Of a stretch of DNA of 64,000 nt, positions 1,316 to 60,002 are shown in pieces. Under the pieces are notes generated by a model. That model did no database searches. It saw only the letters and a program-made list of their open reading frames with translations, and had not been told where the DNA came from. The stretch lies in contig CP064975.1 of NCBI GenBank assembly GCA_016699425.1, positions 718,098-782,097 on the forward strand. The letters run 5' to 3'. The translations under genes were made by a program, and so were the position numbers. Origin of the DNA: Candidatus Moraniibacteriota bacterium (GTDB lineage Bacteria; Patescibacteriota; Minisyncoccia; Moranbacterales; UBA1568). The stretch's first letter is position 1; each line of letters begins with the position of its first letter.

Positions 1316-2763
1316 TCAGAGTGAAAAATTCTGAGAAATCGACTGGAGCAAAGCGGGCAACGGCTCAGGCAATTGCCAACTCAGGACGAGCAAGAGAGCA
1401 AACATCAGTACAACCGGGAGCTGCGTAAGCCGATTGCTTTCACCGCGCTCAGTTCCTTCCAGAACCGGTCCATACACCAGTGCCGACAGAATGCGGAAGA
1501 AGCCAAAGAAAATAACACTCAGCGCCAGGAGCAATACTCCAACAAGCCAGGGAGAGAAAGAGATCCCCGCAGAGAGAATGAGCAATTTCGTCACGAAGAG
1601 TGCAAACGGCGGCAATCCGGCGAGCATAAGGATGCCCGCAAAGAAAAGTGGTCCCGTCAGGGGCAGCGCCTTGAAGAGGCCGCTCACATTCTTGAGTTTG
1701 GTCGAACTGAACCGGAGAAAAATATTTCCCGCCAAGAGAAACAACATCGACTTAGCGATAGCATGATAGAACATGTGCAAGAGCCCGGCCATGATCCCGA
1801 CACCACCTAGACCGAAACCGATCGTCATGAGCCCCATGTGTTCGATGCTCGAGTAGGCGAGGAGACGCTTGTAGTTTTCTGGACGAAGATGATGAAGGCG
1901 GCCAGCACAACTGAGAGTGTCCCGAAGAAAATAAGCAGGCCACTCGTGAAGTGAGTGTCCCCCAAGGCGAGATCGGTGATATGCTTCCAGCGAAGGACCG
2001 CAAACAACGCAACGTTGAGGAGTACGCCGGAAAGCAATGCCGAGATGGGCGACGGCGCCTTGCTATGAGCATCTGGAAGCCAGGCATGGAGCGGAGCGAG
2101 GCCCACCTTGGTCCCATAGCCGACGAGGATGAGGACAAAGGCGATCTTGGCGACGTCAGGCGTCATCGATCCAGCCGCGGCAGCCAGACTGGCCCAATCA
2201 GTCGCGCCCGAATGATCATCTGAGAGTGCAAGAAACAATAGCGTCCCGAGGAGACCAATGAGGAGGCCGAGAGAATTCAAGATGAGGTATTTCCACGCTG
2301 CCTCGGTCGCCGACGGTTTGTTGTAGAAACTGATGAGGAACGCCGTCGCCAATGTTGTCGCTTCGACTGCGGTCCAGGTGATAACCGGATGCACGGTCGA
2401 AACTGCGAGGTACATCGCAAAGAGGAAGATTTCGAGGAGGATGAAGAATTGGCGTACCCGACGCGGGCCGATGATGCCCTTTGTTACTTCCGCCCGCAGA
2501 TACCCGACGGAATAGAGACTGACAAAGAAACCAACGAGCGCGATGATGAGAATGAGGTAAACGGAAAGTCCATCCACCGCGAAGACGCCTGCACTTCGGA
2601 CAGTTTCTTCCGCAACCACGCGCGCGACGAGGCGGAACGCGAGTACGAGCTCGACCATCGCCGCCACGATGACACCCATTTCGATGAGTCGGGTCTTCTT
2701 GGCCGGCAAGAGGAAGAAGAGGGCGGCCGCGAGAACTGGAATGAGGACGAGAAAGATAATCAT
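1316..2763 (-). CDS. NuoN/HyfF-like proton-pumping antiporter subunit, interrupted by a -1 frameshift at an A4 tract (plus-strand T4 at 1874-1877).
   Basis: ORF 1825..2763 ends ...AAFIIFVQKTTSVSSPTRASNTWGS. ORF 1316..1837 continues in another frame as NYKRLLAYSSIEHMGLMTIGFG. Restoring one A yields VQKNYKRLLAYSSIEHMG, the canonical antiporter-subunit motif. The WLPDAHSKAPSPISALLSG motif is present. Confidence 0.8.
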
Positions 2764-2772
2764 ATGGACAGT

Positions 2773-3432
2773 TTAGTCTTCAATCAATCGGTTCATCTCA
2801 CGCGTGTCAAGCGATCCGAACTGGCGATGTACGAGACGCAGAAAAGCGTATGCGATGACCATCCAGACGAGGATATCAAAAACGATACCGAGTTCCAGTG
2901 CCAGTGTCTGCTTCACTCCGAGGAAGAGAGCAAAGAGAACGACACTGTTTTCAAGTGCCAAGACAGCGATGATCTGGGCAAGTGCCCCCTGGCGATTGAT
3001 GAGTAAGAAGATGGCGATGAACACCATCGCGATATTGAAGACGAACACATCCGGCGTCACCGAAGAGACCGTCCAGAGTGCAGCAAAGGACTGCGAGGCC
3101 GCAAAGACGATGAGGCCAAGCATGACAGCCAGCGTCGCCGGGGTTGAGAGATAGCTCGTACTCGCAACGAGGTGTCCAAAACGACGCAAGAGTCGCAAGA
3201 AGAAGTACGGTGCAACAATGACCTTGGCGATGAACGTTACCACCCCGACTATCACGAGTCCCAGCTCATCTCCGGCGATGCCAAGCACGATGATGATCGT
3301 CGCCACTGCCGCGGATTGCAACGCATAGAGGCGAAGGGTATAGGTGGTACTTTTCACGAGATGCAAAAGCACAACCGCGACGAAGGCCATGAGATCGAGC
3401 GAGAGCGTCAGTTGGAGAAAATCGGATTCCAT
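2773..3432 (-). CDS. HyfE-like small polytopic membrane subunit (NuoK/NuoJ-like) of the hydrogenase-4-type complex
   Basis: 219 aa, entirely hydrophobic helices. Its size and its position between the NuoH-like and NuoN-like genes match the hyfE slot of the hyf operon. Confidence 0.55.
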   Translation of the reverse strand: MESDFLQLTLSLDLMAFVAVVLLHLVKSTTYTLRLYALQSAAVATIIIVLGIAGDELGLVIVGVVTFIAKVIVAPYFFLRLLRRFGHLVASTSYLSTPATLAVMLGLIVFAASQSFAALWTVSSVTPDVFVFNIAMVFIAIFLLINRQGALAQIIAVLALENSVVLFALFLGVKQTLALELGIVFDILVWMVIAYAFLRLVHRQFGSLDTREMNRLIED

Positions 3433-33882: not shown

Positions 33883-33911
33883 TTGACAAAAACAATAAAA
33901 AAGGCTATTAT
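33883..33911 (+). promoter_or_regulatory. Near-consensus sigma70 promoter TTGACA-17-TATTAT
   Basis: Exact -35 consensus at 33883-33888, a 17-nt spacer, and TATTAT at 33906-33911. It lies about 24 nt upstream of the 33935 ORF. Confidence 0.5.
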
Positions 33912-33934
33912 GCTCCGTTAACTAAGCCCCACTC

Positions 33935-34135
33935 ATGGCCCCTGCTGTCCAAATCATCGCTTCAGCTTTTCTCTTCTCCATCGGTCTCATCGGGCCCGAG
34001 AGTGTGTTCGCGACAACCGAGCCGAGTTTCACGTTCTCTATTCTCTCGCTGACCGCCCTCGTCCTCGGCACCCTCATCTTCGTCAGCTTCATCGTGAGCC
34101 GCATCGCGACCTGGATCATCAACCGACAAGCCTAA
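33935..34135 (+). CDS. Small hydrophobic protein (66 aa, 2 TM), translationally coupled to the downstream glycosyltransferase
   Basis: The ORF is hydrophobic. The strong promoter lies immediately upstream and the stop is 5 nt before the GT2 ATG. The opposing minus-strand ORF looks like noise. Confidence 0.4.
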   Translation: MAPAVQIIASAFLFSIGLIGPESVFATTEPSFTFSILSLTALVLGTLIFVSFIVSRIATWIINRQA

Positions 34136-34140
34136 CGCTC

Positions 34141-35409
34141 ATGGCTACTGCCTACGGAGAACTCACCGCCGGACTCATCGTCATCCTCGGACTGCTGAAT
34201 GTCTTCCGCATGGCGTTTTTCATGATCGGGTCGGATGTCTACACCGTGAAGCGCGCGCTCCGGAACCGCCGGAAGAAACGCATCACGTTCGGCCTCCCGA
34301 CGATCTCGGTCGTCATCCCCGCCCACAACGAGGAGAACACCATCATCCGCACGATTGAGTCTGTCCTGAACGCCAAATACCCGAGCGAACTCCTCGAGAT
34401 CGTCGTCATGGACGATGGCTCCACCGATCTCACCTACCAGATGGTCGAGCGCTACCGTCTCCTCGTCGATGGTCACTTCAAACTGGTCCGCCAGGAAAAC
34501 GCCGGCAAGGCCCACGCACTGAACAACGGCATGCGCCATCACGCTACCGGCGAACTCATGATGTGTCTCGACGCCGACTCATCGCTCGACCCGGGCGCGC
34601 TCATCAATGCGGCGCGCTATTTCGTCGACCCGCGAGTCGTCGCGCTCTCGGCCAATGTCAAAATCCGCCCGAGCGGCACGCTCTTCAATCTGATCCAGGT
34701 CTTCGAGTACCTCGTCTGCTATCAGATGAAACGTGCGCAGACCGTCTTCAATATCGAGTACATCATCGGCGGCATCGGCTCGACCTTCCGCCGCTCAGCC
34801 TTGATCGAAGTCGGCTTCTACGACACCGACACCATCACCGAGGACATCGACCTCACCATGAAGCTCCTCCGTCTCGGCGGCAAGGACCACCGCGTCATCT
34901 ATGGTTCGGATGTCATCGCCTATACCGAGTCCGTCCTCGACCTGGCCGGCCTCATCCGCCAGCGCTTCCGCTGGAAGTACGGCCGTGCCCAGACCTTCAT
35001 CAAAAACCACCGCCTCTTTTTCGCGACCGAGCGCAAGCACTCGCGCGTCCTCACCTGGTTCTACCTCCCCTACGCGCTTTTCTCCGACCTCGCGTTCTTC
35101 TTCGAGCCGTTCATGGTGTCGTATATCCTCTACATCGTCGTGGCCTACGGCGACTGGGTCACGCTCGCGTCGGCATTCGTCGTCGTCGGCGGCTACCTAT
35201 CGCTCAACATCCTCGCCGAAGACACGATTCCCGTCCGACAGAAATTCGCCCTCGCGCTCGTCGCGCCGTTCATGTATTTCTTCTTCTACCTCCTCAGCTA
35301 TGTGGAGTACCTCGCGCTCATCAAGACCTATATGAAGTTCTGGGAGATCCCCGCGAGCATCCGCGCCAAGCAATGCGGCTGGACCCATGTCGAACGCGCC
35401 AAGGCCTAA
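34141..35409 (+). CDS. Membrane-embedded processive family-2 glycosyltransferase (PgaC/IcaA/cellulose-synthase-like)
   Basis: SVVIPAHNEE…VMDDGS, the DAD motif in MCLDADS, and QRFRWKYG (QxxRW). One N-terminal and four C-terminal TM helices. Confidence 0.85.
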   Translation: MATAYGELTAGLIVILGLLNVFRMAFFMIGSDVYTVKRALRNRRKKRITFGLPTISVVIPAHNEENTIIRTIESVLNAKYPSELLEIVVMDDGSTDLTYQMVERYRLLVDGHFKLVRQENAGKAHALNNGMRHHATGELMMCLDADSSLDPGALINAARYFVDPRVVALSANVKIRPSGTLFNLIQVFEYLVCYQMKRAQTVFNIEYIIGGIGSTFRRSALIEVGFYDTDTITEDIDLTMKLLRLGGKDHRVIYGSDVIAYTESVLDLAGLIRQRFRWKYGRAQTFIKNHRLFFATERKHSRVLTWFYLPYALFSDLAFFFEPFMVSYILYIVVAYGDWVTLASAFVVVGGYLSLNILAEDTIPVRQKFALALVAPFMYFFFYLLSYVEYLALIKTYMKFWEIPASIRAKQCGWTHVERAKA

Positions 35410-35423
35410 GACAATTTGAATAA

Positions 35424-35467
35424 AGAAAAAGCCCGGTCGACAAGGATGTGTCGAACCGGGTTTTTGC
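35424..35467. terminator. Bidirectional rho-independent terminator (about 11-bp stem with one bulge, A-run upstream and T-run downstream)
   Basis: cccggtcgaca…tgtcgaaccggg is flanked by aaagaaaaag and ttttt. It lies between the convergent GT2 gene and the 35487 ORF. Confidence 0.6.
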
Positions 35468-35486
35468 ACCCCGCAAGGCGGAGTGC

Positions 35487-36023
35487 TCAGGCGGCCAGGC
35501 CGAGTTCGGCCATGGTCACGATGCGCGCGGGCGTCTCGGCGAGTTTCGCCCATTCCTGTCGGGAGAGCACCCGCTCGCGCTGCGGGGCCTGGTCTCGGCC
35601 GACGAAGTCGCAGAAGAGCGGCAGAAAGAACGTGCCGATGACTTCCTGGCTGACATACCCCATGTAGGGCACATCGCCGCGGCGGAACTTGCCCCAGTGC
35701 TCGGCGATCTCGCGCTCCCCCGACAGCATGTTGCGCGGGATAAGGAAGTCCTTGGTGAACTTGCCACGGATGCGCCGCTGCGTCCGGGCGAGGCGGTTGA
35801 TCTCGTCACGGATGACGGCGAGCTCGCGCTCGGCATGCGGGATGTCCTCGGGCTGGAGCGTCACGAGGAGCTCGGCGCGGCAGAGACCGACCATGCGGAG
35901 CATGCCCTCACGCGACCAGACCGGCCAGGACACGTCCTCGGGACCGGTGATGAAGTGGTAGTGGTCATCAGCCACGCAGTGATGGAGCCGGAAATATTTC
36001 TGGGATTCGTAAGGAACACGCAT
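35487..36023 (-). CDS. Hypothetical protein (about 178 aa)
   Basis: The minus-strand ORF has protein-like composition. The overlapping plus-strand ORF is Gly/Arg-rich, typical of an antisense artefact. Confidence 0.45.
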   Translation of the reverse strand: MRVPYESQKYFRLHHCVADDHYHFITGPEDVSWPVWSREGMLRMVGLCRAELLVTLQPEDIPHAERELAVIRDEINRLARTQRRIRGKFTKDFLIPRNMLSGEREIAEHWGKFRRGDVPYMGYVSQEVIGTFFLPLFCDFVGRDQAPQRERVLSRQEWAKLAETPARIVTMAELGLAA

Positions 36024-36121
36024 GAATTGCCTCCTTGGCAAACGGAATTTGGTGTCAAAAAAATAGCGCGATAGGTGCTATTTGTCAACTCAAAATAAGC
36101 TTGGCAGTCCGTTATTTTTAG

Positions 36122-36640
36122 TTACCTTACCTCTTCATCAAGAAATCTTTTCAAAAAATATATTCCCTTCTTGGTAAAGCTGTATTTATTATTTTCAGAT
36201 TTTTCTATAAGGTTGTTTGCTACAAAAAATGAGACTGCGTCCGCTGGAATGTGTCTACTATCAAATGCCCAGCCGCCATTAATATAGCTACTAATGCCCT
36301 TGACATTACTCCTAAATATGCCCTTTTTTGAAATAGCATCATACTCATCGGAAAAGTCCGGCTCCAAAGCAGCGAGTATGGGTTCAGGAACACCAAGCTT
36401 AGAATCTCTAGTTTCTATTTCTTTGATAATACTTTTCAGAGATTCAATTTCCCGATCTTTCATTTCTACAGCGTTAAGAACTTTTTCTTCGTTAAGTAAG
36501 AGTTCCTTTCTTAGCTGGTTTGACTCCTCAATCGAAAGCAACCTCTTCCCCGTGATAACCTGCTTTTTATTATGCCTCCAAGTATCAAATTTTAAAGTAA
36601 CCCAATAAACACCATTAGTAACAAAGGGCATCAGCAGCAC
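36122..36640 (-). CDS. Hypothetical protein with an N-terminal TM and a coiled coil, encoded in an AT-rich (about 35% GC) island. GTG start.
   Basis: 172-aa ORF rich in Lys/Glu/Ile/Asn codons. Its composition is sharply different from the flanking DNA. Confidence 0.45.
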   Translation of the reverse strand: MLLMPFVTNGVYWVTLKFDTWRHNKKQVITGKRLLSIEESNQLRKELLLNEEKVLNAVEMKDREIESLKSIIKEIETRDSKLGVPEPILAALEPDFSDEYDAISKKGIFRSNVKGISSYINGGWAFDSRHIPADAVSFFVANNLIEKSENNKYSFTKKGIYFLKRFLDEEVR

Positions 36641-36724
36641 AATTACAGCGGTTGAAGTAACTGGATAGAGAATTAAGAAATTCCATGTATTCGTATCGAG
36701 TGAAGATATATAGTCTATTTTTTC

Positions 36725-37300
36725 ATTTCAACCACTGTGCACTGGAAGTGCACAGATTGGGATTAGATTGGAAATCTAGGAACTCGTCTCCTCGACCCGG
36801 AAACTATCTTCGGTCTCTTTCGATTCAAAATGGTGTTCGATATATTCCTTAATCATATCTTTGGTGACATTGCCGGCACTGACGACAAAGTAGCCTCTCG
36901 CCCACAGGTGCTGCCCCCAGTACTGTTTCTTGAGTGAAGGGTATTCCATCTGGAGTTGTCGGGATGTCTTGCCTTTCAGGTATTTGACCAGGGTGCTCGG
37001 AGCGGTCGAGGGGTCGACTGAGACGAGAATGTGGACATGATCAGGAGCAACCGCACCAGAGATGATCTCGACATTCTCTTCGATACAGATGCGCCGGATG
37101 AGGTCTCTGGCTCTTTGTCCAATCTCACCCTTCAGGACCTTGTAGCGGTACTTGGTAATCCAGGCGATGTGGAGTTGGATACTGAAGACGGAGTGGGAAG
37201 ACTTTCGATATTCAGTGGTCATACTTTCAGTATATCGTACTGGAAGTTATCGCCTGAAGGCGAGGGAACTCACCCCCCCCCAAAGTGGGACCTTAGACCC
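36725..37300 (-). mobile_element. Minimal IS200-like insertion sequence: tnpA only, with candidate subterminal hairpins
   Basis: Perfect palindrome ctgtgcac-tggaa-gtgcacag at 36733-36753 downstream of tnpA. Hairpin cgcc-tgaa-ggcg at about 37248-37259 upstream. No tnpB. Boundaries are approximate. Confidence 0.45.
36776..37222 (-). CDS. tnpA: IS200/IS605-family Y1 (HUH) transposase TnpA
   Basis: HIAWITKYRYKVLKGE…APDHVHILVSVDPS…HLWARGYFVVSAG. The HuH motif and catalytic Tyr are present. Confidence 0.85.
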   Translation of the reverse strand: MTTEYRKSSHSVFSIQLHIAWITKYRYKVLKGEIGQRARDLIRRICIEENVEIISGAVAPDHVHILVSVDPSTAPSTLVKYLKGKTSRQLQMEYPSLKKQYWGQHLWARGYFVVSAGNVTKDMIKEYIEHHFESKETEDSFRVEETSS

Positions 37301-47118: not shown

Positions 47119-47544
47119 CTAGACGCAGCCCGGGGCCGTCCCGACAAAACCCGTGATACCTGTTTCTTGCATCGTCGCCGTACAGGTGCCAGTCAAGTTG
47201 GCCGCTGGGACATCGATTTGAAATGTACCCGCACCAGCCTGGCCACATGACGGAGTAGTTACTTCGGCGATACCCGCCACATCGATGACATCTTCAGAGA
47301 TATCACCAAACGTCGCTCCCCCATCCGCGTAATCACCCATAGAATCGCTATCACAGGCCGAGATCGCCTGCGTCTGCATGCTATGCGCGACGGCCTTGAA
47401 TTTTGCCATCTTCGCCTTCTCCCGAGCGCTCGACAACGAGACGAGCACGATCGAGGCGAGAATGCCGATGATCGCGATGACGATGAGGAGTTCAATCAAG
47501 GTGAAACCGGTTCGGCGGATACCTCGTAAGGAAAGTTTCTTCAC
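47119..47544 (-). CDS. pilA: Type IV major pilin (PilA-like), copy 3 (diverged)
   Basis: [36 protein letters not shown]-terminal disulfide pair. Confidence 0.8.
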
Positions 47545-47585
47545 GATGCTTTTAGTGACAATTTAGCAATATTCTCAGCTCAATT

Positions 47586-47613
47586 GATTCATCAAGGATG
47601 CCCTTGATGAATC
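47586..47613 (-). promoter_or_regulatory. Perfect 12-bp stem-loop (GAUUCAUCAAGG-AUGC-CCUUGAUGAAUC) without a U-tract, between pilin genes 2 and 3
   Basis: Exact inverted repeat at 47586-47597 and 47602-47613. Confidence 0.5.
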
Positions 47614-47629
47614 ATTCAACCGAGAAGGC

Positions 47630-48055
47630 CTAGCAACCTAATGGGAAGGTCACGCCTGTATCCGTGAGGATAGTGGTATCTGCAGTCTCACATGCTGTTG
47701 CTGCCGCAGAACTCCCAAGTTCTATCGAGGACGTTGTCAACGAGAAGGTCCCAGCTCCATTTACCCCGCAGCTATCAGCTGCACCGAAAGCCAACGGGTC
47801 CATCTTGAGCTGGCTCGTCGGTAGTGTTACTTCGCCAGCCGCTAAGTCACCGTCTGCATCTGAATCACACACCAGAATCGCAGATGCTTGGACCGAATGC
47901 ACCTGAGCCTTGTAGGCGGCGATGTTCGCCTTTTCACGGGCGCCCGAGAGCGAGACGAGGACGATCGAGGCGAGAATGCCGATGATCGCGATGACGATGA
48001 GGAGTTCGATCAAGGTGAAACCTCTTTTCTGTGCCTGCTTCAATATTGCGTGCAT
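47630..48055 (-). CDS. pilA: Type IV major pilin (PilA-like), copy 2
   Basis: [42 protein letters not shown]. About 88% identical to copy 1. Confidence 0.8.
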   Translation of the reverse strand: MHAILKQAQKRGFTLIELLIVIAIIGILASIVLVSLSGAREKANIAAYKAQVHSVQASAILVCDSDADGDLAAGEVTLPTSQLKMDPLAFGAADSCGVNGAGTFSLTTSSIELGSSAAATACETADTTILTDTGVTFPLGC

Positions 48056-48104
48056 ATCTGTTTATTATTTTTAGCTCACTTTACTTAATTTTTAGAGCTT
48101 CGGC

Positions 48105-48128
48105 ATCTGCCGAAACCATTCGGCAGAT
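48105..48128 (-). promoter_or_regulatory. Perfect 10-bp stem-loop (AUCUGCCGAA-ACCA-UUCGGCAGAU) without a U-tract, between pilin genes 1 and 2
   Basis: Exact inverted repeat at 48105-48114 and 48119-48128. Confidence 0.5.
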
Positions 48129-48144
48129 AGAAAACCCTAAACAC

Positions 48145-48567
48145 TTAGCAACCTAATGGGAAGGTCACGCCTGTATCCGTGAGGATCGTGGTATCTGCAA
48201 CCTCACATGCTGTTGCTGCCGCAGAACTCCCAAGTTCTATCGAGGATGTTCTCAATGAGAAGGTCCCGGCTCCGTTTACCCCACAGTTATCAGCTGTGGC
48301 GTAATTTAATGGGTCCATCTTGAGATTAGCTGCCGGCGGTAGTGTTACTTCGCCAGCCGCTAAGTTACCGTCTGCATCTGAATCACACACCAGAATCGCG
48401 GATGACTGGACCGAGTGAACCTGAGCCTTGTAAGCGGCGATATTCGCCTTCTCCCGTGCTCCCGAGAGCGAGACGAGGACGATCGAGGCGAGAATGCCGA
48501 TGATCGCGATGACGATGAGGAGTTCGATCAAGGTGAAACCTTTGTATGTTTTATTCATAATTCTCAC
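48145..48567 (-). CDS. pilA: Type IV major pilin (PilA-like), copy 1. A strong AAGGAGG Shine-Dalgarno sequence lies upstream.
   Basis: [42 protein letters not shown]. Confidence 0.8.
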   Translation of the reverse strand: MRIMNKTYKGFTLIELLIVIAIIGILASIVLVSLSGAREKANIAAYKAQVHSVQSSAILVCDSDADGNLAAGEVTLPPAANLKMDPLNYATADNCGVNGAGTFSLRTSSIELGSSAAATACEVADTTILTDTGVTFPLGC

Positions 48568-48758
48568 CTCCTTTCCTATTTGTTTTTATTTTCGTACATC
48601 TGTAGTATATCGTATCCTTCACACCCTGGCTAGAAATGTGTCAACCCCACGGAAAGTGACCAGTGCCAAGAAACCAGTGACCTGAGACTCTACATCCCAT
48701 CGTAACAAAATTTCTAAAGATTTCTTTTGTCACATGTCATCTGTTTCTGGTTGCTCGC

Positions 48759-54312: not shown

Positions 54313-55389
54313 TTATTTTTTCTTGAGTATTCGATTCGCTCCCTGAAGCGCGAGCCCAAGCGCCACCGAAAACGATGTCCCCATTCGGTTGATGGCTCCC
54401 TCAAGCTCCGGCGCATAAGTGACCCGCTTCCACGGGTTACCAATCGTGACTGGTAGATTGAGCAGCCCGCTATAATACGCCGTGAGACCAGTGAGGCCAG
54501 CTGTCCCACCTGAAAGAATTATACCATCAATCGGGCGATCCGGATGTTTCAGCCGGTGCATAGAGATAATCCGTTCCATCTCCGAACCGATAGCCTCGAG
54601 CGCCGGGAAGATAAGTTTCGTCCCCGGAGTGTTCAAATAATCTTTACTACTCTTCTTGAGTGCTTCGGCTCGATCCTCGGCGATATTGAGTCCCTCGGTC
54701 AGGGTACGTGTCACATCTCGTCCACCGACATCGAGGTTGCGACTGACCTTCACCAGACCATTCTCAACGAGCACGAGGTTGGTCGCTCGTGATCCGATAT
54801 CCGCGACGAGATACACGCCCTGGTCACCATCGACGACGGAACGTACCATGGAAAAAGTCTCGAGCTCAAGAAGCTGCATATCGAAACCAACCGACTTGAT
54901 ATAACTCTCGTACCGTTCGACTTCTTTATTTCGAGCTGCGACGAGGAGTACTTCCACCCGATTCCTACTCTGGTCACCTTGGTTCGCGCCGGGGACAGGA
55001 ATTTCTCCGACGATTTCCCACGACAGTGCCACGTCCTCCAGGGGCGACGGGATGTATTTGTGTGCCTCGAATTGAATCGCTTCCTGCAACTCCTTCTCAC
55101 TCATTTTTGGAAACTCGACAAGCGCCACGAGACCAATGAAGGCTGGCATGGCGATATAGACCTGCTTCGTCCCAGGCTGAAGCCGGTCGAGCAGGGTGCG
55201 AAGATAGGTCGTCACCCGGGCATCATAGTTCCCCTGAGTATTCCCCGTTTCTTTCTCAATCGTCGAGAGATTTATTTCAGCGTAATTCTTCAGATGCACT
55301 TCCCCTCCCTCGACACTCAGCTCTACTGCTTTGATCGAAGACGTACCGAAATCGATACCGAGAAATGTGGGCTTGTTGAATCCGAACAT
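54313..55389 (-). CDS. pilM: Type IV pilus assembly ATPase-like actin-fold protein PilM
   Basis: LGIDFGTSSIKAVEL actin-like phosphate-1 motif. 358 aa. Confidence 0.85.
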   Translation of the reverse strand: MFGFNKPTFLGIDFGTSSIKAVELSVEGGEVHLKNYAEINLSTIEKETGNTQGNYDARVTTYLRTLLDRLQPGTKQVYIAMPAFIGLVALVEFPKMSEKELQEAIQFEAHKYIPSPLEDVALSWEIVGEIPVPGANQGDQSRNRVEVLLVAARNKEVERYESYIKSVGFDMQLLELETFSMVRSVVDGDQGVYLVADIGSRATNLVLVENGLVKVSRNLDVGGRDVTRTLTEGLNIAEDRAEALKKSSKDYLNTPGTKLIFPALEAIGSEMERIISMHRLKHPDRPIDGIILSGGTAGLTGLTAYYSGLLNLPVTIGNPWKRVTYAPELEGAINRMGTSFSVALGLALQGANRILKKK

Positions 55390-55744
55390 GTGTTTTTATT
55401 TCATTGCTACTATAGCACAACCTTGTTTTTTTTCAGAAGGATACATCGTTCCTGTAATGGAGAAACTTCAAGTCCAAGACTTACTTGTGCTACACTACCC
55501 AAAAACCCACCTCTCAAAAAAATGCCCCGCTCCCTTCTCATCTTCCTCGCTCTCTTCATTCTGGCTACCACGACCCTTCCCTCGTCCCCACCACGTCTCT
55601 CCACGCAGGCCTCATTCCTTGTGGCCTCTCCACCCCAGATCCCGATATCCTCGCTAGTACGGATCCTACTCAAGGCACATCCGTTGCACCCTCTGCCACC
55701 TGTTAGTTGGCTTAAGTCGCATCGTCGTCTTCCTCCGAAACATC

Positions 55745-57299
55745 ATGGCCGCAGTCGCGGTCGCCGTCTTGGTCGCGATGGCCATCATCTACCTCACCTC
55801 AGGGGGGAATGAAGGTCGCATGACCTTTGCCAAAGGAGGCATGTTCGCGGCTTTGATTGGACTCGGTGTCGTCCTCTTAGCCTGGGTCACGGTCAACTTC
55901 ATCTTGACGCTTCCCATCATCAATACTACAACCGGTCTCATCCGTACCGGTTGGGATACGGTGAGCTGTAGTACCACATCCCTCTCGACGGGAGCGGTGG
56001 CTACAACCACCCCCACCCCTAGTACGGGCGGAGGTGGAGCGAGTGGCACGGGTGGAGGCCTGGGAGGTGGAGGTGATCTCGTCACCTTGCCCAGAGATAC
56101 ATCCGGCGCGGTCATTGTTGCTCCCATCGCTTCGCCAGCGAGCCTTGGTGTGACGGCTCCGTCTGCTTCGAGTGCAATCCTCTCATGGGGAGCAGTGCCT
56201 GGAGCGACCGGGTATGAGGTGGAACGCTGTACGGGACTGACCTGTACCGTCTTTACCTCCCCTGGGTACGTCCAATACCACGAGTTTTACCGACACCACC
56301 CTCACTCCCGGTACCAGCTATTCCTACCATGTCCGTGCGATCACCTCAGCTGGAGTCTCAACCTGGTCGAATGTGGTGGGAGTGACGACGGTTGCAATCC
56401 CGAGTACAAATCCTGGGACACCGAGCACGCCAGGTATTCCGGGAACGCCGGGCAATCCTGGAAATCCGGGCAATCCAGGGACACCGGGCACCCCAGGAAT
56501 TGCCTGTGCCGCCCCCGGTTCGCCTCAATATTTACTGGACAAGAACTGGGTGAGTAATCGGATCAATCCGGATGGGACACCGATTCGGACAGAAGTATGG
56601 TTTGCCGGTAGCGCGGCCAATGACAACCTCTCGATGAATTTGCGGATTACCTGTCAAATGAGCGCTCTCGGACATGGCAACGACCTCGCTCCCGAAGTCG
56701 GTGTTCTGATTCGCAATGCGACGGCTTCAAGCTTTGATATCATTCCCAACTATTCCCAAACACTGACCAATAATCGTGGGTATACCTGCAATGTCCGGAC
56801 CGTCACCGAAACCGCCACCTATACCCCATTGTCTGATACCACGATACGACTGTTCGGGCTGGATTTCACCGGGACATGCATGGGAAGTAGTACTCCGACA
56901 CCGAGCCCGACACCGACTGGGACGACCATTCGGTTGACTCTCCCACAAACAAACAGCTCCTACAGCATCCTGTCACCCATCTATAGCAGCTGGAGCATCA
57001 CGGGTGCTCCGGAAAATTCACAGGTGATCTTGGTCAATACCCTGATCACTCCTTATGCAACTGTCACTGATGGCACCTATGGGAGTAATCGATTGATACA
57101 GTTGTCGCCAGGGGACAGTACTGGTTCGCATCAATGGCTTGTCGGTCCGACATATTGGAATATCCCCGGGGTGTTTGAGATGACAGCGTATGTGAGGCAA
57201 TGCAACTCAGGTGGATGTGACCGAGCTAATGTTTTTGGAGCTCCCGGACAAGGCATTGATTACGCACAATCAGCCACCGTACGCTACATAGTCCATTGA
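55745..57299 (+). CDS. Membrane-anchored surface protein with a Gly-rich linker, an FN3 domain, a collagen-like (Gly-X-Y)x9 repeat and a C-terminal beta-rich domain. Interrupted by a 1-nt frameshift at 56259-56266.
   Basis: ORF 55745..56557 carries the N-terminal TM helices and ILSWGAVPGATGYEVERCTGLTCTVFTSPG. The FN3 domain continues in the next frame (GTSNTTSFTDTTLTPGTSYSYHVRAITSAGVSTWSN) as ORF 56373..57299, followed by PGTPSTPGIPGTPGNPGNPGNPGTPGTPG. Confidence 0.55.
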
Positions 57300-57463
57300 C
57301 CCATTTCCCCTTGTTATTTCGAAGTCCGTACCGACGCTTCACTCTCTATATAATCGAGATATTACATGCCGGCATTACCGAGTTCGCTCGGCTATTCGTA
57401 TTCGATAAGGGTACCAGACGTGATTTACACTGGACCAACGCTAGAGCTTGGCTCAAGTTCACA

Positions 57464-57492
57464 TTGACAGTCCCCTCCCAACACCGTAGAAT
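57464..57492 (+). promoter_or_regulatory. Consensus sigma70 promoter TTGACA-17-TAGAAT upstream of clpC
   Basis: Hexamers at 57464-57469 and 57487-57492. The ATG is at 57504. Confidence 0.5.
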
Positions 57493-57503
57493 ATGCCTAC
57501 TCT

Positions 57504-60002
57504 ATGCTCACTCCAGCCTTTGGCGAAAAGCTCTCGTTTCATGCGCGGCACGCTCTGAAAGAGGCGCGTGACATGGCTCGGTATACCCGGACCACCGAGA
57601 TCGAACCGCGCCACCTCCTCCTCGCCCTTTCCCTCGAAGCGGGCAGCCTCGGCAGCATCCTCCTCGAAAATATCGGTTTCAAGAAAGACGCTGTCGGAAA
57701 GCTGTGTCTGAAGAAAGCACCCGCGAAGAAACACCTTGGTGGGTCAGAGTATTCGCCCGTCCTCTCCCCTGTCGCCCAGTCGATCGTGAAGCGTGCTTAT
57801 GTCCTCGCCAAAGAGCATGGCTATCCATACGTCGGGACTGAGCATTTGGTCGCGGCCCTCCTCGAATCCGAAGACCCATCACTCCTCGCCATCATTGAGA
57901 CACTTGAGGTCAGTGAAGAAAAAGTTCGCACGGCGCTCGACACCCATCTGCGGTTTGAGCACTTTCCCGAACTGGCTCGGATGTTTGATTTCCCCGATCT
58001 CCCACTGATCCGGGGCGAGATGCGAGAACGCGAAGGTGCCAATGGTGCCTCCTTCCTCGAACAGCACGCGGTCGAACTGACAGAGACCGCCGGGAGCGAG
58101 ACCCGCTTCGTCGGCCGAGAGCGCGAATTGGACCGACTCACTCATATCCTTGGCCGCAAAGAAAAGAACAATGCGATCCTCGTCGGTGACCCGGGTGTCG
58201 GCAAGACCGCACTCGTCACTGCCTTGGCGCTCCGCATGAAAGAGGGTCAGGCCGGCCCGGTACTGTCGGGGAAACGCATCTACTCTCTCGACCTCGCCTC
58301 CCTCGTCGCTGGGACAAGTTTCCGGGGTGAATTTGAGAATCGGGTGAAAGAGCTCATCCACGAAGTACGCCAACGCCCCGACGTCATCCTCTTCATCGAT
58401 GAGATTCATACACTCATCGGCACCGGCAATACTCAGGGCGGTTTGGATGCGGCCAATATCCTGAAGCCGGCCCTCGCGCGCGGTGAAATCCAAGTCATCG
58501 GCGCGACGACTTATTCTGAATTCAAGCGGCACTTTGAGAAAGACGCCGCGCTCGAACGCCGCTTCCAGCCGCTCCAACTCCCCGAACCGACGCCCGAGGA
58601 GACGCTCCAGATTCTCGAGCAAGCCCAAAGCGCCTATGAAGCTTTCCACGCCCTCGTGATCGATGCGGCCGCCCTGCGTTCGGCTGTTGATCTCTCGGTC
58701 CGCTATATCCCTGATCGCTTCCTCCCAGACAAAGCACTCGACCTCATCGATGAAGCCGCCTCGCTCGTCCGACACCGGAAAGCGGGTCCCAGCAAAAGTA
58801 ACTTCTCCACTCTCCTCGCCCTCGAACGTGAACTCGGTGAAGCCGAACATGAGAAAGAACACCTCATCGCTGAAGGCGCCTACGACGAGGCGGAGGCTTT
58901 GAAGCGATCCATCACCCTCATCCAGAAACGACTCCAGGACGTGACTGAGCATGCCTCGGCCGCCGAACCAAAATCAAAGCGTGCTATCGTCAAACACGCC
59001 GATATCCTGGAAATCGTCTCTCGAGCCACTGGCATCCCCTTCGCCCGGCTGTCTGAAGACACGCCCGCCGCTCGACTCGAGCGGGTAAAGTCAGCCCTGG
59101 GGACGAAAGTTATCGGTCAGGAGACTGCCAAAGAGAAAGTCCTCACGACTCTCGCACGTTCCATCTCGGGCGTGAATGACCCGAACCGCCCGCTTGGCTC
59201 TTTCCTCCTGCTCGGTCCGACCGGCGTCGGTAAGACGCATCTGGCCAAAGTCCTGGCTCTGGAATTCTTCGGCGATGAGAAGGCACTTATCCGCCTCGAT
59301 ATGAGTGAATTCATGGAGCGCCACTCGGTCGCCCAAATTATCGGCGCGCCGGCGGGGTATGTCGGCTATGGTGACGGGGGGAAACTCACCGAAGCGATCC
59401 GTCGTCGCCCCTACGCCGTCGTCCTCTTTGATGAGATCGAGAAGGCACACCCAGATGTCTTCAATATCCTCCTTCAAATCCTCGATGAAGGGGTGCTCAC
59501 AGATGCCGAGGGCCGCCGCGTTTCCTTCAAGAATACTCTCATCATCCTCACCTCAAATATCGGCACTGCGAGCTTCACCCAATCCGCCAAGGTTGGCTTC
59601 GCTGAGGCCGTCCCGGGGCGGGTCTTGCGCGCCGAATTCGAAGCGATCAAACGCGAAGTCCTCGAGGAGCTGAAGAAAGAGATGCGCCCTGAACTCCTTG
59701 GCCGTCTCGATCAGGTGATCGTCTTCAATGCCCTCGACCAACAGGCGATCGAACGCATCGCCACACTCGAGCTCGACCAACTGAAGGCCCGACTCGCAAA
59801 GCAAGGCATCATCCTCACCATCCCGACCGCGATCACTCGCTGGATTGCTGAAAAAAGCTTCGCCCCCGAGCAAGGTGCTCGGCTCATAAGGAAGAATGTC
59901 CAAGAATATGTCGAATCTGTCCTCGCCGAGCGGATGCTCGGGAAGCGACTCCCCAAACGACTCGCCCTCTCAATCCAACGCGGCACGGTCCTCGCTCGCT
60001 AA
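57504..60002 (+). CDS. clpC: ClpC-type AAA+ chaperone/unfoldase (two AAA modules, Clp-N repeats, short middle domain)
   Basis: Clp_N repeats. ILVGDPGVGKTALV (NBD1) and LLLGPTGVGKTHLAKVLA (NBD2). 832 aa. Confidence 0.85.
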   Translation: MLTPAFGEKLSFHARHALKEARDMARYTRTTEIEPRHLLLALSLEAGSLGSILLENIGFKKDAVGKLCLKKAPAKKHLGGSEYSPVLSPVAQSIVKRAYVLAKEHGYPYVGTEHLVAALLESEDPSLLAIIETLEVSEEKVRTALDTHLRFEHFPELARMFDFPDLPLIRGEMREREGANGASFLEQHAVELTETAGSETRFVGRERELDRLTHILGRKEKNNAILVGDPGVGKTALVTALALRMKEGQAGPVLSGKRIYSLDLASLVAGTSFRGEFENRVKELIHEVRQRPDVILFIDEIHTLIGTGNTQGGLDAANILKPALARGEIQVIGATTYSEFKRHFEKDAALERRFQPLQLPEPTPEETLQILEQAQSAYEAFHALVIDAAALRSAVDLSVRYIPDRFLPDKALDLIDEAASLVRHRKAGPSKSNFSTLLALERELGEAEHEKEHLIAEGAYDEAEALKRSITLIQKRLQDVTEHASAAEPKSKRAIVKHADILEIVSRATGIPFARLSEDTPAARLERVKSALGTKVIGQETAKEKVLTTLARSISGVNDPNRPLGSFLLLGPTGVGKTHLAKVLALEFFGDEKALIRLDMSEFMERHSVAQIIGAPAGYVGYGDGGKLTEAIRRRPYAVVLFDEIEKAHPDVFNILLQILDEGVLTDAEGRRVSFKNTLIILTSNIGTASFTQSAKVGFAEAVPGRVLRAEFEAIKREVLEELKKEMRPELLGRLDQVIVFNALDQQAIERIATLELDQLKARLAKQGIILTIPTAITRWIAEKSFAPEQGARLIRKNVQEYVESVLAERMLGKRLPKRLALSIQRGTVLAR

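What the first reader, a model, noticed from the sequence alone, without database searches (positions are those of the whole stretch)
55745..57299. Surface protein with an FN3 domain and a collagen-like Gly-X-Y repeat, divergently placed from pilM and interrupted at a C4/G3 tract
After an N-terminal double-TM anchor and a Gly-rich linker comes a textbook FN3 motif (SWGAVPGATGYEVER). It is broken mid-domain by a 1-nt frameshift at 56259-56266 (ccccTggg) and resumes in the next frame (GTSNTTSFTDTTLTPGTSYSYHVRAITSAGVSTWSN). Then come nine Gly-X-Y triplets (GTPSTPGIPGTPGNPGNPGNPGTPGTPG), encoded by a 9-nt tandem DNA repeat at 56411-56503, and then a roughly 260-aa Ser/Thr-rich beta domain. The repeat length could vary by slippage. 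The gene shares the promoter region with the pilus operon and may encode a pilus-associated adhesin or spacer. This is the third homopolymer frameshift in the window.
Basis: partly seen in the sequence, partly recalled or inferred. Interest (0 to 1): 0.6.

Follow-up and report, generated by a model that had tools for sequence, protein, structure and literature searches.

The report
Broken pilin-anchored FN3 surface protein gene
This is one gene for a cell-surface protein of a tiny Moranbacteria (CPR) bacterium, a VirB2-like membrane hairpin carrying an FN3 domain and two Ig-like domains; the deposited sequence breaks it with three single-base indels, which are most likely consensus errors of a low-coverage Nanopore genome and not biology.

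Summary
An FN3 domain is split by one extra base at the C4 tract (56259-56262) and continues in the next frame. It starts at 55522, not 55745, and has two more 1-nt indels upstream (about 55577/78 and 55682/83).

Three single-base edits restore a 592-aa ORF: signal peptide, Pfam T4SS_pilin (VirB2-like two-helix hairpin), Gly linker, FN3, Pro/Thr/Gly linker, and two beta-sandwich domains. Intact relatives read TVFTSLGTSNTT across the break.

The "collagen-like" stretch falls below Pfam's threshold and is not conserved in orthologs, so it is a linker. The gene carries its own promoter. Its place beside pilM is seen in four lineages only. The closest relatives have nothing in that slot and carry the gene's promoter and 5' end (where their contigs stop) after comF.

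The window comes from CP064975, a circular MAG assembled from about 18x Nanopore and about 10x Illumina reads. All three indels lie in the part shared at 95-100% identity with other alleles. I rate consensus artefact at about 0.6, a recent true pseudogene at about 0.33, and phase variation or programmed frameshifting at about 0.03. Interest is modest. The family (a VirB2-like anchor with swappable ectodomains) is mildly novel.

The parts
55459..57463 (+). A 2,005-bp segment holding the whole gene. It is present in the window, but only about 11 nt occupy this position in the closest relatives (L011-L016, about 92.5% nt identity on both flanks).
   Evidence: blastn of the window against L011, L013 and L015. 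The flanks align up to 55458 and again from 57464, which correspond to adjacent positions 3378 and 3366 in L011.
55488..55496 (+). The gene's own extended -10 promoter element, TGCTACACT. It travels with the gene.
   Evidence: The block GTGCTACACTACCCAAAAAC...ATGCCCCGCTCC is conserved downstream of comF in L011, L012, L014 and L016. A TGCTACACT element also lies upstream of the L003 ortholog. That it acts as a promoter is inferred.
55522..55577 (+). True start codon and most of the signal peptide (MPRSLLIFLALFILATTTL), in frame 1. Cleavage is predicted after SLHA (residue 29), which lies in the next frame segment.
   Evidence: Identical to the N-terminus of the intact relative P0003. A29 is invariant in the family alignment.
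55577..55578 (+). Indel 1: one base is missing (window ACGACCCT-TCCCTCG, relatives ACGACCCTCTCCCTCG).
   Evidence: blastn alignment with L001. L012, L014 and L016 also read ...CCACCCTCTCCCTCG.
55578..55682 (+). Mature N-terminal exoplasmic segment (SLVPTTSLHAGLIPCGLSTPDPDILASTDPTQGTS), readable only in frame 3. It includes a variable loop 5 residues longer than in relatives.
   Evidence: tblastn with P0003 residues 20-43 gives 100% identity at 55578-55649 in frame 3. Alignment A2.
55674..55690 (+). Indel 2: one base is missing somewhere in GGCACATCCGTTGCACC. The most economical repair is CC to CCC after 55682, which gives ...QGTSRCTLCH.
   Evidence: The frame change sits between the tblastn HSPs ending at 55649 (frame 3) and starting at 55682 (frame 2). 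The repair gives an open 592-aa frame. The exact base is inferred.
55715..55903 (+). T4SS_pilin (VirB2-like) domain: two hydrophobic helices joined by the loop TSGGNEGRMTFAKGG.
   Evidence: Pfam PF18895, 30.7 bits against a cutoff of 26.6, residues 66-128 of the repaired protein. AlphaFold2 predicts a helical hairpin at residues 49-93 and 98-130 with pLDDT about 80. The match begins upstream of the ATG at 55745.
56132..56378 (+). Fibronectin type III domain, split by indel 3.
   Evidence: Pfam PF00041, 36.2 bits, profile positions 2-81 of 84, on the repaired protein. Only profile positions 45-81 match in the native downstream frame.
56259..56262 (+). Indel 3: one extra base in CCCC, next to two T-to-C differences (window ACCTCCCCTGGG, relatives ACTTCTCTGGG).
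   Evidence: blastn with L001 and L002. P0003 and P0004 read TVFTSLGTSNTT across the site.
56411..56500 (+). Pro/Thr/Gly-rich interdomain linker with Gly-X-Pro periodicity. It is not a collagen helix.
   Evidence: TRF finds imperfect repeats of period 9 and 18. Collagen HMM score is 17.6 against a cutoff of 27.2. Ortholog linkers are non-GXY and of different lengths.
56511..56876 (+). D1: a beta-sandwich domain with 4 Cys and no Pfam family. It is shared with P0001, P0002, P0005 (about 83% identity) and P0021.
   Evidence: AlphaFold2 pLDDT of about 72-94 per 10-residue block over residues 1-126 of the C-terminal model. Representative search. No Pfam hit.
56877..56909 (+). TPTPSPTPTG linker between D1 and D2.
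   Evidence: pLDDT below 50 at residues 127-137. TRF period-6 repeat at 56895-56917.
56910..57299 (+). D2: an Ig-like beta-sandwich with a conserved C-x(2-4)-GC motif, followed by the stop codon. This module is widespread in secreted proteins that also carry PG_binding_1 or subtilase domains.
   Evidence: More than 30 distant homologs in the representative search. Alignment A1. Sub-threshold Big_7 hits in homologs. pLDDT is mostly above 80. Foldseek against the PDB gives only generic Ig-like or CBM hits.

Best explanation
Window 55522-57299 (+) is a single gene. The source is CP064975, a circular Moranbacterales MAG, where the gene is annotated as two hypothetical proteins, IPJ68_03950 and IPJ68_03955.

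The intended product is a surface protein of about 592 aa with these parts in order:
- a Sec signal peptide, with cleavage predicted after SLHA at residue 29;
- a Cys-containing exoplasmic segment;
- a VirB2-like T4SS_pilin two-helix membrane hairpin, with both ends outside the cell;
- a Gly-rich linker;
- one FN3 domain;
- a Pro/Thr/Gly linker;
- two Ig-like beta-sandwich domains (D1, D2).

Inferred mechanism: the hairpin anchors the protein in the membrane, or conceivably in a VirB2-type filament. The FN3 domain and linkers act as a stalk. D1 and D2 are the exposed binding end of an adhesin-type protein of a probably host-dependent CPR bacterium.

As written, the gene cannot be translated through. 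Three single-base indels (-1 at about 55577/78, -1 at about 55682/83, +1 at 56259-62) put it in three frames. These are most likely residual consensus errors of a low-coverage Nanopore R9 assembly that had only one Illumina polishing round. They lie in the stretch that co-occurring alleles or paralogs share at 95-100% identity. They are not a regulatory or phase-variable frameshift.

Sub-confidences: gene identity and architecture about 0.9; indels are an artefact about 0.6.
For: **Architecture**
- Pfam on the repaired protein gives T4SS_pilin at 30.7 bits (cutoff 26.6) and fn3 at 36.2 bits spanning the break.
- P0003 aligns to the window in frames 1, 3, 2 and 3 at 99-100% identity.
- Intact homologs have the same domain order: P0002, P0021, and L022 at 692 aa.
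- AlphaFold2 predicts a helical hairpin and two beta domains with mean pLDDT 82.
- Four Cys are invariant, and all lie on the predicted outer side.

**Source**
- Exact-sequence look-up places the ORFs on a 1,217,328-bp NCBI MAG contig.
- Singleton et al. 2021, Supplementary Data 3, lists CP064975 as 1 contig, 1,217,328 bp, circular, Moranbacterales, with Illumina coverage 9.8x, Nanopore coverage 18.4x and CheckM strain heterogeneity 100.
- Methods were CANU, Racon, two rounds of medaka 0.6.5, then one Racon round with Illumina reads.

**Artefact pattern**
- All lesions are 1-nt indels in C/T-rich runs. After repair there is no stop codon in 592 codons.
- dN/dS of the repaired frame against intact relatives is 0.23.
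- All three indels fall inside 55487-56386. That stretch is 95-100% identical to other alleles (L001, L002), and the unique D1-D2 part has none.
- Each indel sits at or next to a point where alleles differ.
- Eight short-read contigs from relatives (L002, L010-L012, L014, L016, L042, L063) stop inside this gene, which suggests microdiversity or paralogy.
- Another 1-nt homopolymer deletion (A4 where A5 is needed) breaks a HyfF/NuoN-like gene elsewhere in the window.
Against: - Three of the four or more coding indels I found in 64 kb sit within 700 bp of one gene. Long housekeeping genes are intact: DnaE 1169 aa, SMC 801 aa, LigA 728 aa, ClpC 832 aa, PilB 559 aa. Errors would therefore have to be strongly localised.
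- The locus is demonstrably dispensable and decays for real in relatives. The gene is absent from this slot in L011-L016. It is pilin-only in L036 and L037. D2 is eroded by a TAA stop plus a frameshift in two separately deposited assemblies of one species, L003 and L039.
- Indel 3 comes with two adjacent substitutions, so it is not a simple homopolymer miscall.
- No reads could be inspected.
- The adhesin function and the membrane topology are inferred. Foldseek gave only generic hits.
Confidence: 0.57

Rival explanations
1. Genuine, recent pseudogene. The three indels are real mutations in this strain, and the surface-protein gene is being lost from a variable slot between pilM and clpC.
For: - The slot varies among relatives. 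It is empty in L011-L016, holds a short pilin-only gene in L036 and L037, and holds the full gene in L003/L039.
- L003 and L039, two separately deposited assemblies that are 98.7% identical, share a TAA stop and a frameshift that erode domain D2. Decay in this family is therefore real.
- The indels cluster in one gene while the neighbouring 12-kb pilus operon and clpC show no frameshift.
- Indel 3 is accompanied by substitutions.
Against: - There is no nonsense codon in the 592 repaired codons. This is unexpected if enough neutral time had passed for three indels.
- dN/dS is 0.23, and 280 nt are 100% identical to an intact homolog right up to indel 3.
- The indels are confined to the part shared with other alleles. 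That pattern fits a mis-polishing model better than random decay.
- The source assembly is low-coverage Nanopore R9.
Confidence: 0.33
2. Regulated frameshifting. Either phase variation by slipped-strand mispairing at the C4/G3 tract, or programmed ribosomal frameshifting, switches expression of the adhesin.
For: The break at 56259 lies in a short C run in a surface-protein gene. Contingency loci are often found in such genes.
Against: - The tract is only C4. Relatives have no tract there (TCTCTG) and read straight through.
- Three separate breaks would be needed (-1, -1, +1), and none has a slippery X XXY YYZ motif or a stop-codon-dependent +1 motif.
- No break is conserved in any homolog.
Confidence: 0.03
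3. Two independent genes, as annotated in GenBank: a 270-aa membrane protein (55745-56557) and a 249-aa secreted beta-domain protein (56550-57299).
For: - NCBI annotation calls them as separate hypothetical proteins.
- D1-like and D2-like domains do occur without FN3 in other proteins, for example P0023 at 147 aa and P0040 at 168 aa.
Against: - The 270-aa ORF lacks the first third of its T4SS_pilin domain and any signal peptide. It carries about 95 aa of out-of-frame sequence. Its fn3 half is below detection.
- The 249-aa ORF begins inside D1, with no signal peptide and no Shine-Dalgarno-like motif that I could see.
- Every ortholog fuses these parts in one frame.
Confidence: 0.02

Closest known systems
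VirB2-like pilins of Patescibacteria (Pfam PF18895 T4SS_pilin; Quinonero-Coronel et al. 2025, PMC12102498; essential pilin array in Southlakia epibionticum, Wang et al. 2023, PMC10633639)
   Same: - The HMM match is above the gathering threshold.
- A signal peptide is followed by two hydrophobic helices predicted as a hairpin.
- The lineage is CPR.
- The family is highly variable between paralogs and strains.
- Short 152-157-aa pilin-only members exist. Two of them (L036, L037) lie in the same pilM-clpC slot.
   Different: - This member carries a C-terminal ectodomain of about 450 aa (FN3, D1, D2), where typical members are about 100-150 aa.
- By inspection of ORF translations, the 64-kb window has no virB4 or other T4SS gene. 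The neighbours are type IV pilus genes and clpC.
- Polymerisation into a pilus is untested, and a bulky C-terminal fusion may not allow it.
- I found no discussion of such fusions in the papers I read.
Modular bacterial surface adhesins with FN3 or Ig-like stalk domains (general class, from established knowledge)
   Same: - The protein is secreted.
- It has low-complexity Pro/Thr/Gly linkers.
- It has a tandem FN3 and beta-sandwich ectodomain.
- The distal domains vary among strains.
   Different: - The anchor is a VirB2-like helical hairpin at the N-terminus. There is no LPXTG/sortase signal, lipobox or C-terminal TM segment.
- No ligand or binding activity is known.
- Fold matches are generic only: a porphyran-binding CBM, GH3 FnIII-like domains, RbmA and the HPI S-layer protein.
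Bacterial collagen-like proteins (Scl1/Scl2, BclA; Pfam PF01391)
   Same: A short run of Gly-X-Pro triplets encoded by a 9-nt periodic DNA repeat.
   Different: - There are only 8 uninterrupted triplets.
- The HMM score is below the gathering threshold (17.6 against 27.2).
- Orthologs replace the run with non-GXY PT-rich linkers.
- No trimerisation domain was identified.
Polymorphic surface or toxin loci with a conserved N-terminal module and swapped C-terminal cassettes (pilE/pilS, CdiA-CT, Rhs). This is an analogy only.
   Same: - The 5' 870 nt are 95-100% identical between alleles whose 3' parts cannot be aligned (window against L001 and L002).
- P0001, P0002 and P0006 share a near-identical N-terminus but have different ectodomains.
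- The gene and its promoter occupy different genomic positions in related genomes.
   Different: - No silent cassettes, recombinase or repeats were found at the segment borders.
- Whether the variants are paralogs or strain alleles is unknown.
- Only 64 kb of the genome was available.

Membership tests
T4SS_pilin / VirB2-like pilin (PF18895) | Profile-HMM match above Pfam's gathering score | tested here: met
   30.7 bits against a cutoff of 26.6 on the repaired protein, profile positions 10-71 of 71. The native 270-aa ORF reaches only 25.4 bits.
T4SS_pilin / VirB2-like pilin (PF18895) | Cleavable signal peptide followed by two hydrophobic helices forming a hairpin | tested here: met
   The hydrophobic N-terminus MPRSLLIFLALFILATTTL with invariant A29. 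AlphaFold2 helices at 49-93 and 98-130 with pLDDT about 80. This is prediction only.
T4SS_pilin / VirB2-like pilin (PF18895) | Fold similarity to solved VirB2/TraA pilins | tested here: inconclusive
   Foldseek against the PDB gives no hit with E<=0.001. An HMM search against PDB sequences gives nothing. A short helical hairpin is a poor query.
T4SS_pilin / VirB2-like pilin (PF18895) | Small stand-alone protein (about 100-150 aa) | tested here: not met
   The repaired protein is 592 aa. Short 152-157-aa relatives do exist, including in the same slot (L036, L037).
T4SS_pilin / VirB2-like pilin (PF18895) | Encoded near virB4 or other T4SS genes | tested here: not met
   I saw no VirB4/VirB6/VirD4-like ORF when inspecting the translated ORFs of the 64-kb window. 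The rest of the genome was not available.
T4SS_pilin / VirB2-like pilin (PF18895) | Polymerises into an extracellular pilus | not testable with these tools
   Needs microscopy or biochemistry.
Fibronectin type III domain (PF00041) | Full-length profile match above the gathering score | tested here: met
   36.2 bits against a cutoff of 25, profile positions 2-81 of 84, spanning the repaired break.
Collagen triple-helix repeat (PF01391) / bacterial collagen-like protein | Profile match above the gathering score and a long uninterrupted (Gly-X-Y)n | tested here: not met
   17.6 bits against a cutoff of 27.2. There are 8 uninterrupted triplets.
Collagen triple-helix repeat (PF01391) / bacterial collagen-like protein | Gly-X-Y register conserved in orthologs | tested here: not met
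   P0002 has NPGTPPDNPGTPSTPGTPPDNPG..., P0003/P0004 have PANPGSTPGTG, and L022 has PGTPGNGGGNPGLPSNT.
Phase-variable contingency locus (homopolymer slippage) | Long homopolymer (usually 7 nt or more) at the switch site, present in relatives | tested here: not met
   The tract is C4 only. Relatives read TCTCTG at the site.
Programmed ribosomal frameshift | Frameshift site conserved in orthologs, with a slippery or stop-dependent motif | tested here: not met
   Every homolog whose sequence across these sites I examined is in a single frame there. No slippery heptamer at the three sites.
Type IV pilus pilin or pilus-associated component | Class III prepilin signal (G|FTLIE) or conserved linkage to T4P genes | tested here: not met
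   The protein has no GFTLIE motif, whereas the window's true pilins have [11 protein letters not shown]. Adjacency to pilM is seen in four lineages only. The other members whose flanks I examined lie next to ftsK, bipA, leuS or comF.

The most novel reading that the evidence does not exclude
The conserved N-terminal module (promoter, signal peptide, VirB2-like hairpin and FN3) may serve as a portable recombination handle. On it, Moranbacteria would swap, lose or extend ectodomain cassettes (none, FN3+D1, FN3+D1+D2, 2xFN3 plus other domains). That would give a polymorphic host-attachment protein, possibly displayed on a VirB2-type filament. The broken copy in the window would then be one state of a rapidly turning-over locus, not noise.
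Probability: 0.2. Interest if true: 0.6.

Novelty: new variant of a known kind. Interest (0 to 1): 0.3.

Why it matters
For annotation, two "hypothetical proteins" (IPJ68_03950 and IPJ68_03955) should be merged into one frameshifted gene for a T4SS_pilin/FN3 surface protein. The case also shows how low-coverage Nanopore MAGs can mimic pseudogenes or phase variation in microdiverse surface-protein genes.

Biologically, VirB2-like pilins are a recently recognised feature of Patescibacteria, and they are essential in the one system tested. A subfamily that uses this hairpin as the anchor for large, swappable FN3/Ig ectodomains would be a candidate host-attachment determinant in a lineage with no cultured members that I know of. 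That part remains inference.

Tried and rejected
- **Exact-protein look-ups.** PilM, ClpC and the 249-aa ORF (P0020) were not found in the contig index. The source was identified through cluster membership instead.
- **Exact DNA pattern search.** A pattern spanning the C3/C4 site found no match in JGI metagenomes, so no independent copy of the window allele could be found to test the indel.
- **Protein-guided scans.**
  - The metagenome scan found only more distant relatives.
  - The genome scan did not return the window's own genome.
- **Foldseek against the PDB.**
  - The C-terminal model gave only generic Ig-like or CBM matches.
  - The N-terminal hairpin gave nothing.
  - The afdb50 library was unavailable.
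- **Family and sequence searches.**
  - NCBIfam gave only a spurious FN3-region hit to CbhB.
  - Pfam gave nothing for D1 or D2.
  - The PDB sequence search gave nothing.
- **Segment borders.** I saw no repeats at the borders of the 2-kb segment in the junction sequences.
- **First repair attempt.** My first repair used a single deletion for the upstream region. It was wrong, and P0003 showed that two separate breaks are needed.
Full report
**1. Observation**

The region was read directly and translated in three frames. The ORF from ATG 55745 encodes two hydrophobic helices, a Gly-rich stretch and then SWGAVPGATGYEVERCTGLTCTVFTSPGY, after which it degenerates. The +1 frame continues LGTSNTTSFTDTTLTPGTSYSYHVRAITSAGVSTWSN and stays open to 57299.

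The tract ccccTggg is at 56259-56266. Removing one C gives a full fn3 match (PF00041, 36.2 bits, profile positions 2-81 of 84). The downstream native ORF carries only profile positions 45-81, and the 270-aa ORF gives no fn3 hit. One FN3 domain is therefore truly split by one base.

The Gly-X-Y run (56411-56500) and its imperfect 9/18-nt DNA periodicity are real. pilM is divergent, with its start at 55389.

**2. The gene is longer and more broken than reported**

The Pfam T4SS_pilin match begins upstream of ATG 55745. A protein search found intact relatives. P0003 (ENA) is nearly identical and starts MPRSLLIFLALFILATTTLSLVPTTSLHAGLIPCGLSTPDPDI...RCTLCHLLVG.

tblastn of P0003 against the window gives four collinear pieces in frames 1, 3, 2 and 3: 55522-, 55578-55649, 55682-56266 and 56262-56558. 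DNA alignment places the lesions:
- A base is missing at 55577/78 (window ACGACCCT-TCCCTCG).
- A net -1 lies inside a variable loop near 55682.
- An extra base lies at 56259-62 (window TTTACCTCCCCTGGG, relatives TTTA-CTTCTCTGGG).

Three single-base edits give an uninterrupted 592-aa ORF.

**3. Architecture**

The repaired protein has these parts:
- A signal peptide. A29 is invariant in the family, and cleavage after SLHA is inferred.
- A Cys-bearing exoplasmic segment.
- A T4SS_pilin domain (30.7 bits against a cutoff of 26.6).
- A Gly linker.
- An FN3 domain.
- A Pro/Thr/Gly linker.
- D1, then a TPTPSPTPTG linker, then D2.

AlphaFold2 predicts a helical hairpin for the N-terminal module, with pLDDT about 80 over the helices. 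For the C-terminus it predicts two beta-sandwich domains with mean pLDDT 82.

Four Cys are invariant (C34, C56, C59, C150), and all lie on the predicted outer side. This fits an N-out/C-out hairpin.

D1 and D2 have no Pfam family. D2 recurs in more than 30 secreted proteins that also carry PG_binding_1 or subtilase domains, and homologs give weak Big_7 signals. Foldseek returns only generic Ig-like or CBM folds.

**4. What it is not**

*Collagen.* The HMM score is below threshold (17.6 against 27.2). There are only 8 uninterrupted triplets. Orthologs carry non-GXY PT-rich linkers of other lengths. The 9-nt units differ at 2-3 positions, which makes them poor substrates for slippage.

*Phase variation or programmed frameshifting.* The tract is only C4 and is absent in relatives. 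Three unrelated breaks would be needed, none has a slippery motif, and homologs read straight through.

*Type IV pilus component.* The protein has no prepilin signal, unlike the window's real pilins.

**5. Genomic context**

L003/L039 (pilM <-> gene -> clpC) and L010 (gene -> clpC -> comF -> GDSL) are syntenic with the window. L036 and L037 have a short 152-154-aa pilin-only gene in the same slot.

The closest relatives (L011-L016, about 92.5% nt identity over the pilus operon and clpC) have only about 11 nt where the window has 55459-57463. In those relatives the same promoter block and 5' end (GTGCTACACTACCCAAAAAC...ATGCCCCGCTCC) lie downstream of comF. Four contigs stop within the first 100-200 nt of the gene.

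Other family members lie beside ftsK, between a PPIase gene and bipA, or beside leuS. The gene therefore has its own portable promoter, and its link to pilM is specific to a few lineages.

The gene is mosaic. Against L001 it is 97-100% identical from 55487 to 56386, apart from the variable loop at about 55607-55726 (77-82%), and then cannot be aligned. Against L002 it is 83-90% identical to 55975, 100% identical over 55976-56215, and about 60% identical after 56396. P0001, P0002 and P0006 share a near-identical N-terminus but have different ectodomains.

**6. Artefact or pseudogene?**

*Source.* The fragments are QQR78209.1 and QQR78210.1 on a 1,217,328-bp MAG contig. Supplementary Data 3 of Singleton et al. 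2021 lists CP064975 with exactly that length. It is circular, assigned to Moranbacterales f__UBA1568, with Illumina coverage 9.8x, Nanopore coverage 18.4x and strain heterogeneity 100. The methods were CANU, Racon, two rounds of medaka 0.6.5, then one Racon round with Illumina reads.

*For artefact:*
- All lesions are 1-nt indels in C/T-rich runs.
- There is no stop codon in the 592 repaired codons.
- dN/dS is 0.23.
- All three lesions fall in the stretch shared with other alleles, at or next to points where alleles differ. None falls in the unique D1-D2 kilobase.
- Short-read assemblies of relatives break in this gene.
- A separate A4-for-A5 deletion breaks a HyfF-like gene in the window.

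*For a true pseudogene:*
- The errors would have to be highly localised, because long housekeeping genes are intact.
- The slot is dispensable.
- D2 is eroded by a TAA stop plus a frameshift in two separately deposited assemblies, L003 and L039.
- Indel 3 has adjacent substitutions.

I put artefact at about 0.6 and true pseudogene at about 0.33. Only the reads can decide.

**7. Comparison and novelty**

The closest known family is the VirB2-like pilins of Patescibacteria (PF18895). They are widespread, often occur in variable arrays near virB4, and are essential in Southlakia (PMC12102498, PMC10633639, PMC12857230).

This member meets the HMM and hairpin criteria. It is four times the usual size, has a C-terminal ectodomain, and has no T4SS gene nearby. 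So it may use the hairpin only as an anchor. I found no discussion of such fusions in the papers I read.

Verdict: an ordinary broken gene in a draft-quality closed MAG. It belongs to a mildly novel variant family, a VirB2-like anchor with swappable FN3/Ig ectodomains.

Noticed in passing
window ~1860-1880 (- strand), ORFs 1316-2062 and 1825-2772: A HyfF/NuoN-like membrane subunit of a hydrogenase-4/complex-I-like gene cluster is split by a 1-nt deletion. CAGAAAACTAC has A4 where A5 is needed to read ...IFVQKNYKRLLAYSSIEHMG. The rest of the cluster (window 1 to about 7039) looks intact.
   Followed up: partly
L003 4120-4510 and L039 7290-7670: In the orthologous gene of a related species, the second C-terminal domain (D2) is cut off by an in-frame TAA after GTCMGSSAP and then shifted into another frame. 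Two separately deposited assemblies that are 98.7% identical share this structure. This is genuine domain erosion in the family.
   Followed up: yes
L011, L012, L014, L016 (locus starts); L002, L010 (starts); L042, L063 (ends): Eight short-read contigs from several datasets end inside the conserved 5' module of this gene family. This points to population microdiversity or multiple paralogs that break de Bruijn assemblies.
   Followed up: partly
L011 13-112 (reverse strand), also L012, L014, L016: In the closest relatives, the same promoter and start of the gene lie directly downstream of comF and not between pilM and clpC. The cassette has therefore moved, or been lost and regained, within the same neighbourhood.
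   Followed up: partly
L001 1-55 and 1069-1102: The ENA contig carrying the intact allele P0003 has Nextera adapter sequence at its 5' end (TCGTCGGCAGCGTCAGATGTGTATAAGAGACAG). Its 3' end appears to run into adapter as well, because the predicted protein ends in the non-homologous tail LSLIHISEPTRPY.
   Followed up: no
window 57464-57504: The clpC promoter is near-consensus (TTGACA, 17-nt spacer, TAGAAT). Its -10 element ends 11 nt before the ATG, so the mRNA is leaderless or nearly so. pilM and the FN3 gene also lack Shine-Dalgarno motifs that I could see.
   Followed up: no
window 33900-37250: A compositional island. It has a high-GC3 glycosyltransferase and a neighbouring gene (GC 0.61), then a low-GC ORF (36122-36727, GC about 0.36), then an IS200/Y1-type transposase (36776-37246).
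   Followed up: no
window 47119-48585 (- strand): Three tandem type IV pilin paralogs with [11 protein letters not shown] prepilin signals. Two of them (47630-48061 and 48145-48585) are nearly identical in their variable C-terminal halves.
   Followed up: no
L037, L038, L040, L041, L043, L044, L048, L052-L054, L058: Several third-party (TPA) MAGs that carry this Moranbacteria-type gene family are titled "uncultured Bdellovibrionales bacterium". L037 at least also has a syntenic pilM/clpC. The taxonomic label is probably wrong.
   Followed up: no
window 56910-57296; P0025-P0054: D2 defines a domain of about 120 aa with no Pfam model. Its motifs are I.L..P..G..Y.IG..IPI.W...NAP.NSQV ... PG.Y...A.v..C.P.GC. 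It recurs in dozens of secreted proteins alongside PG_binding_1, subtilase and Ig-like repeats.
   Followed up: partly
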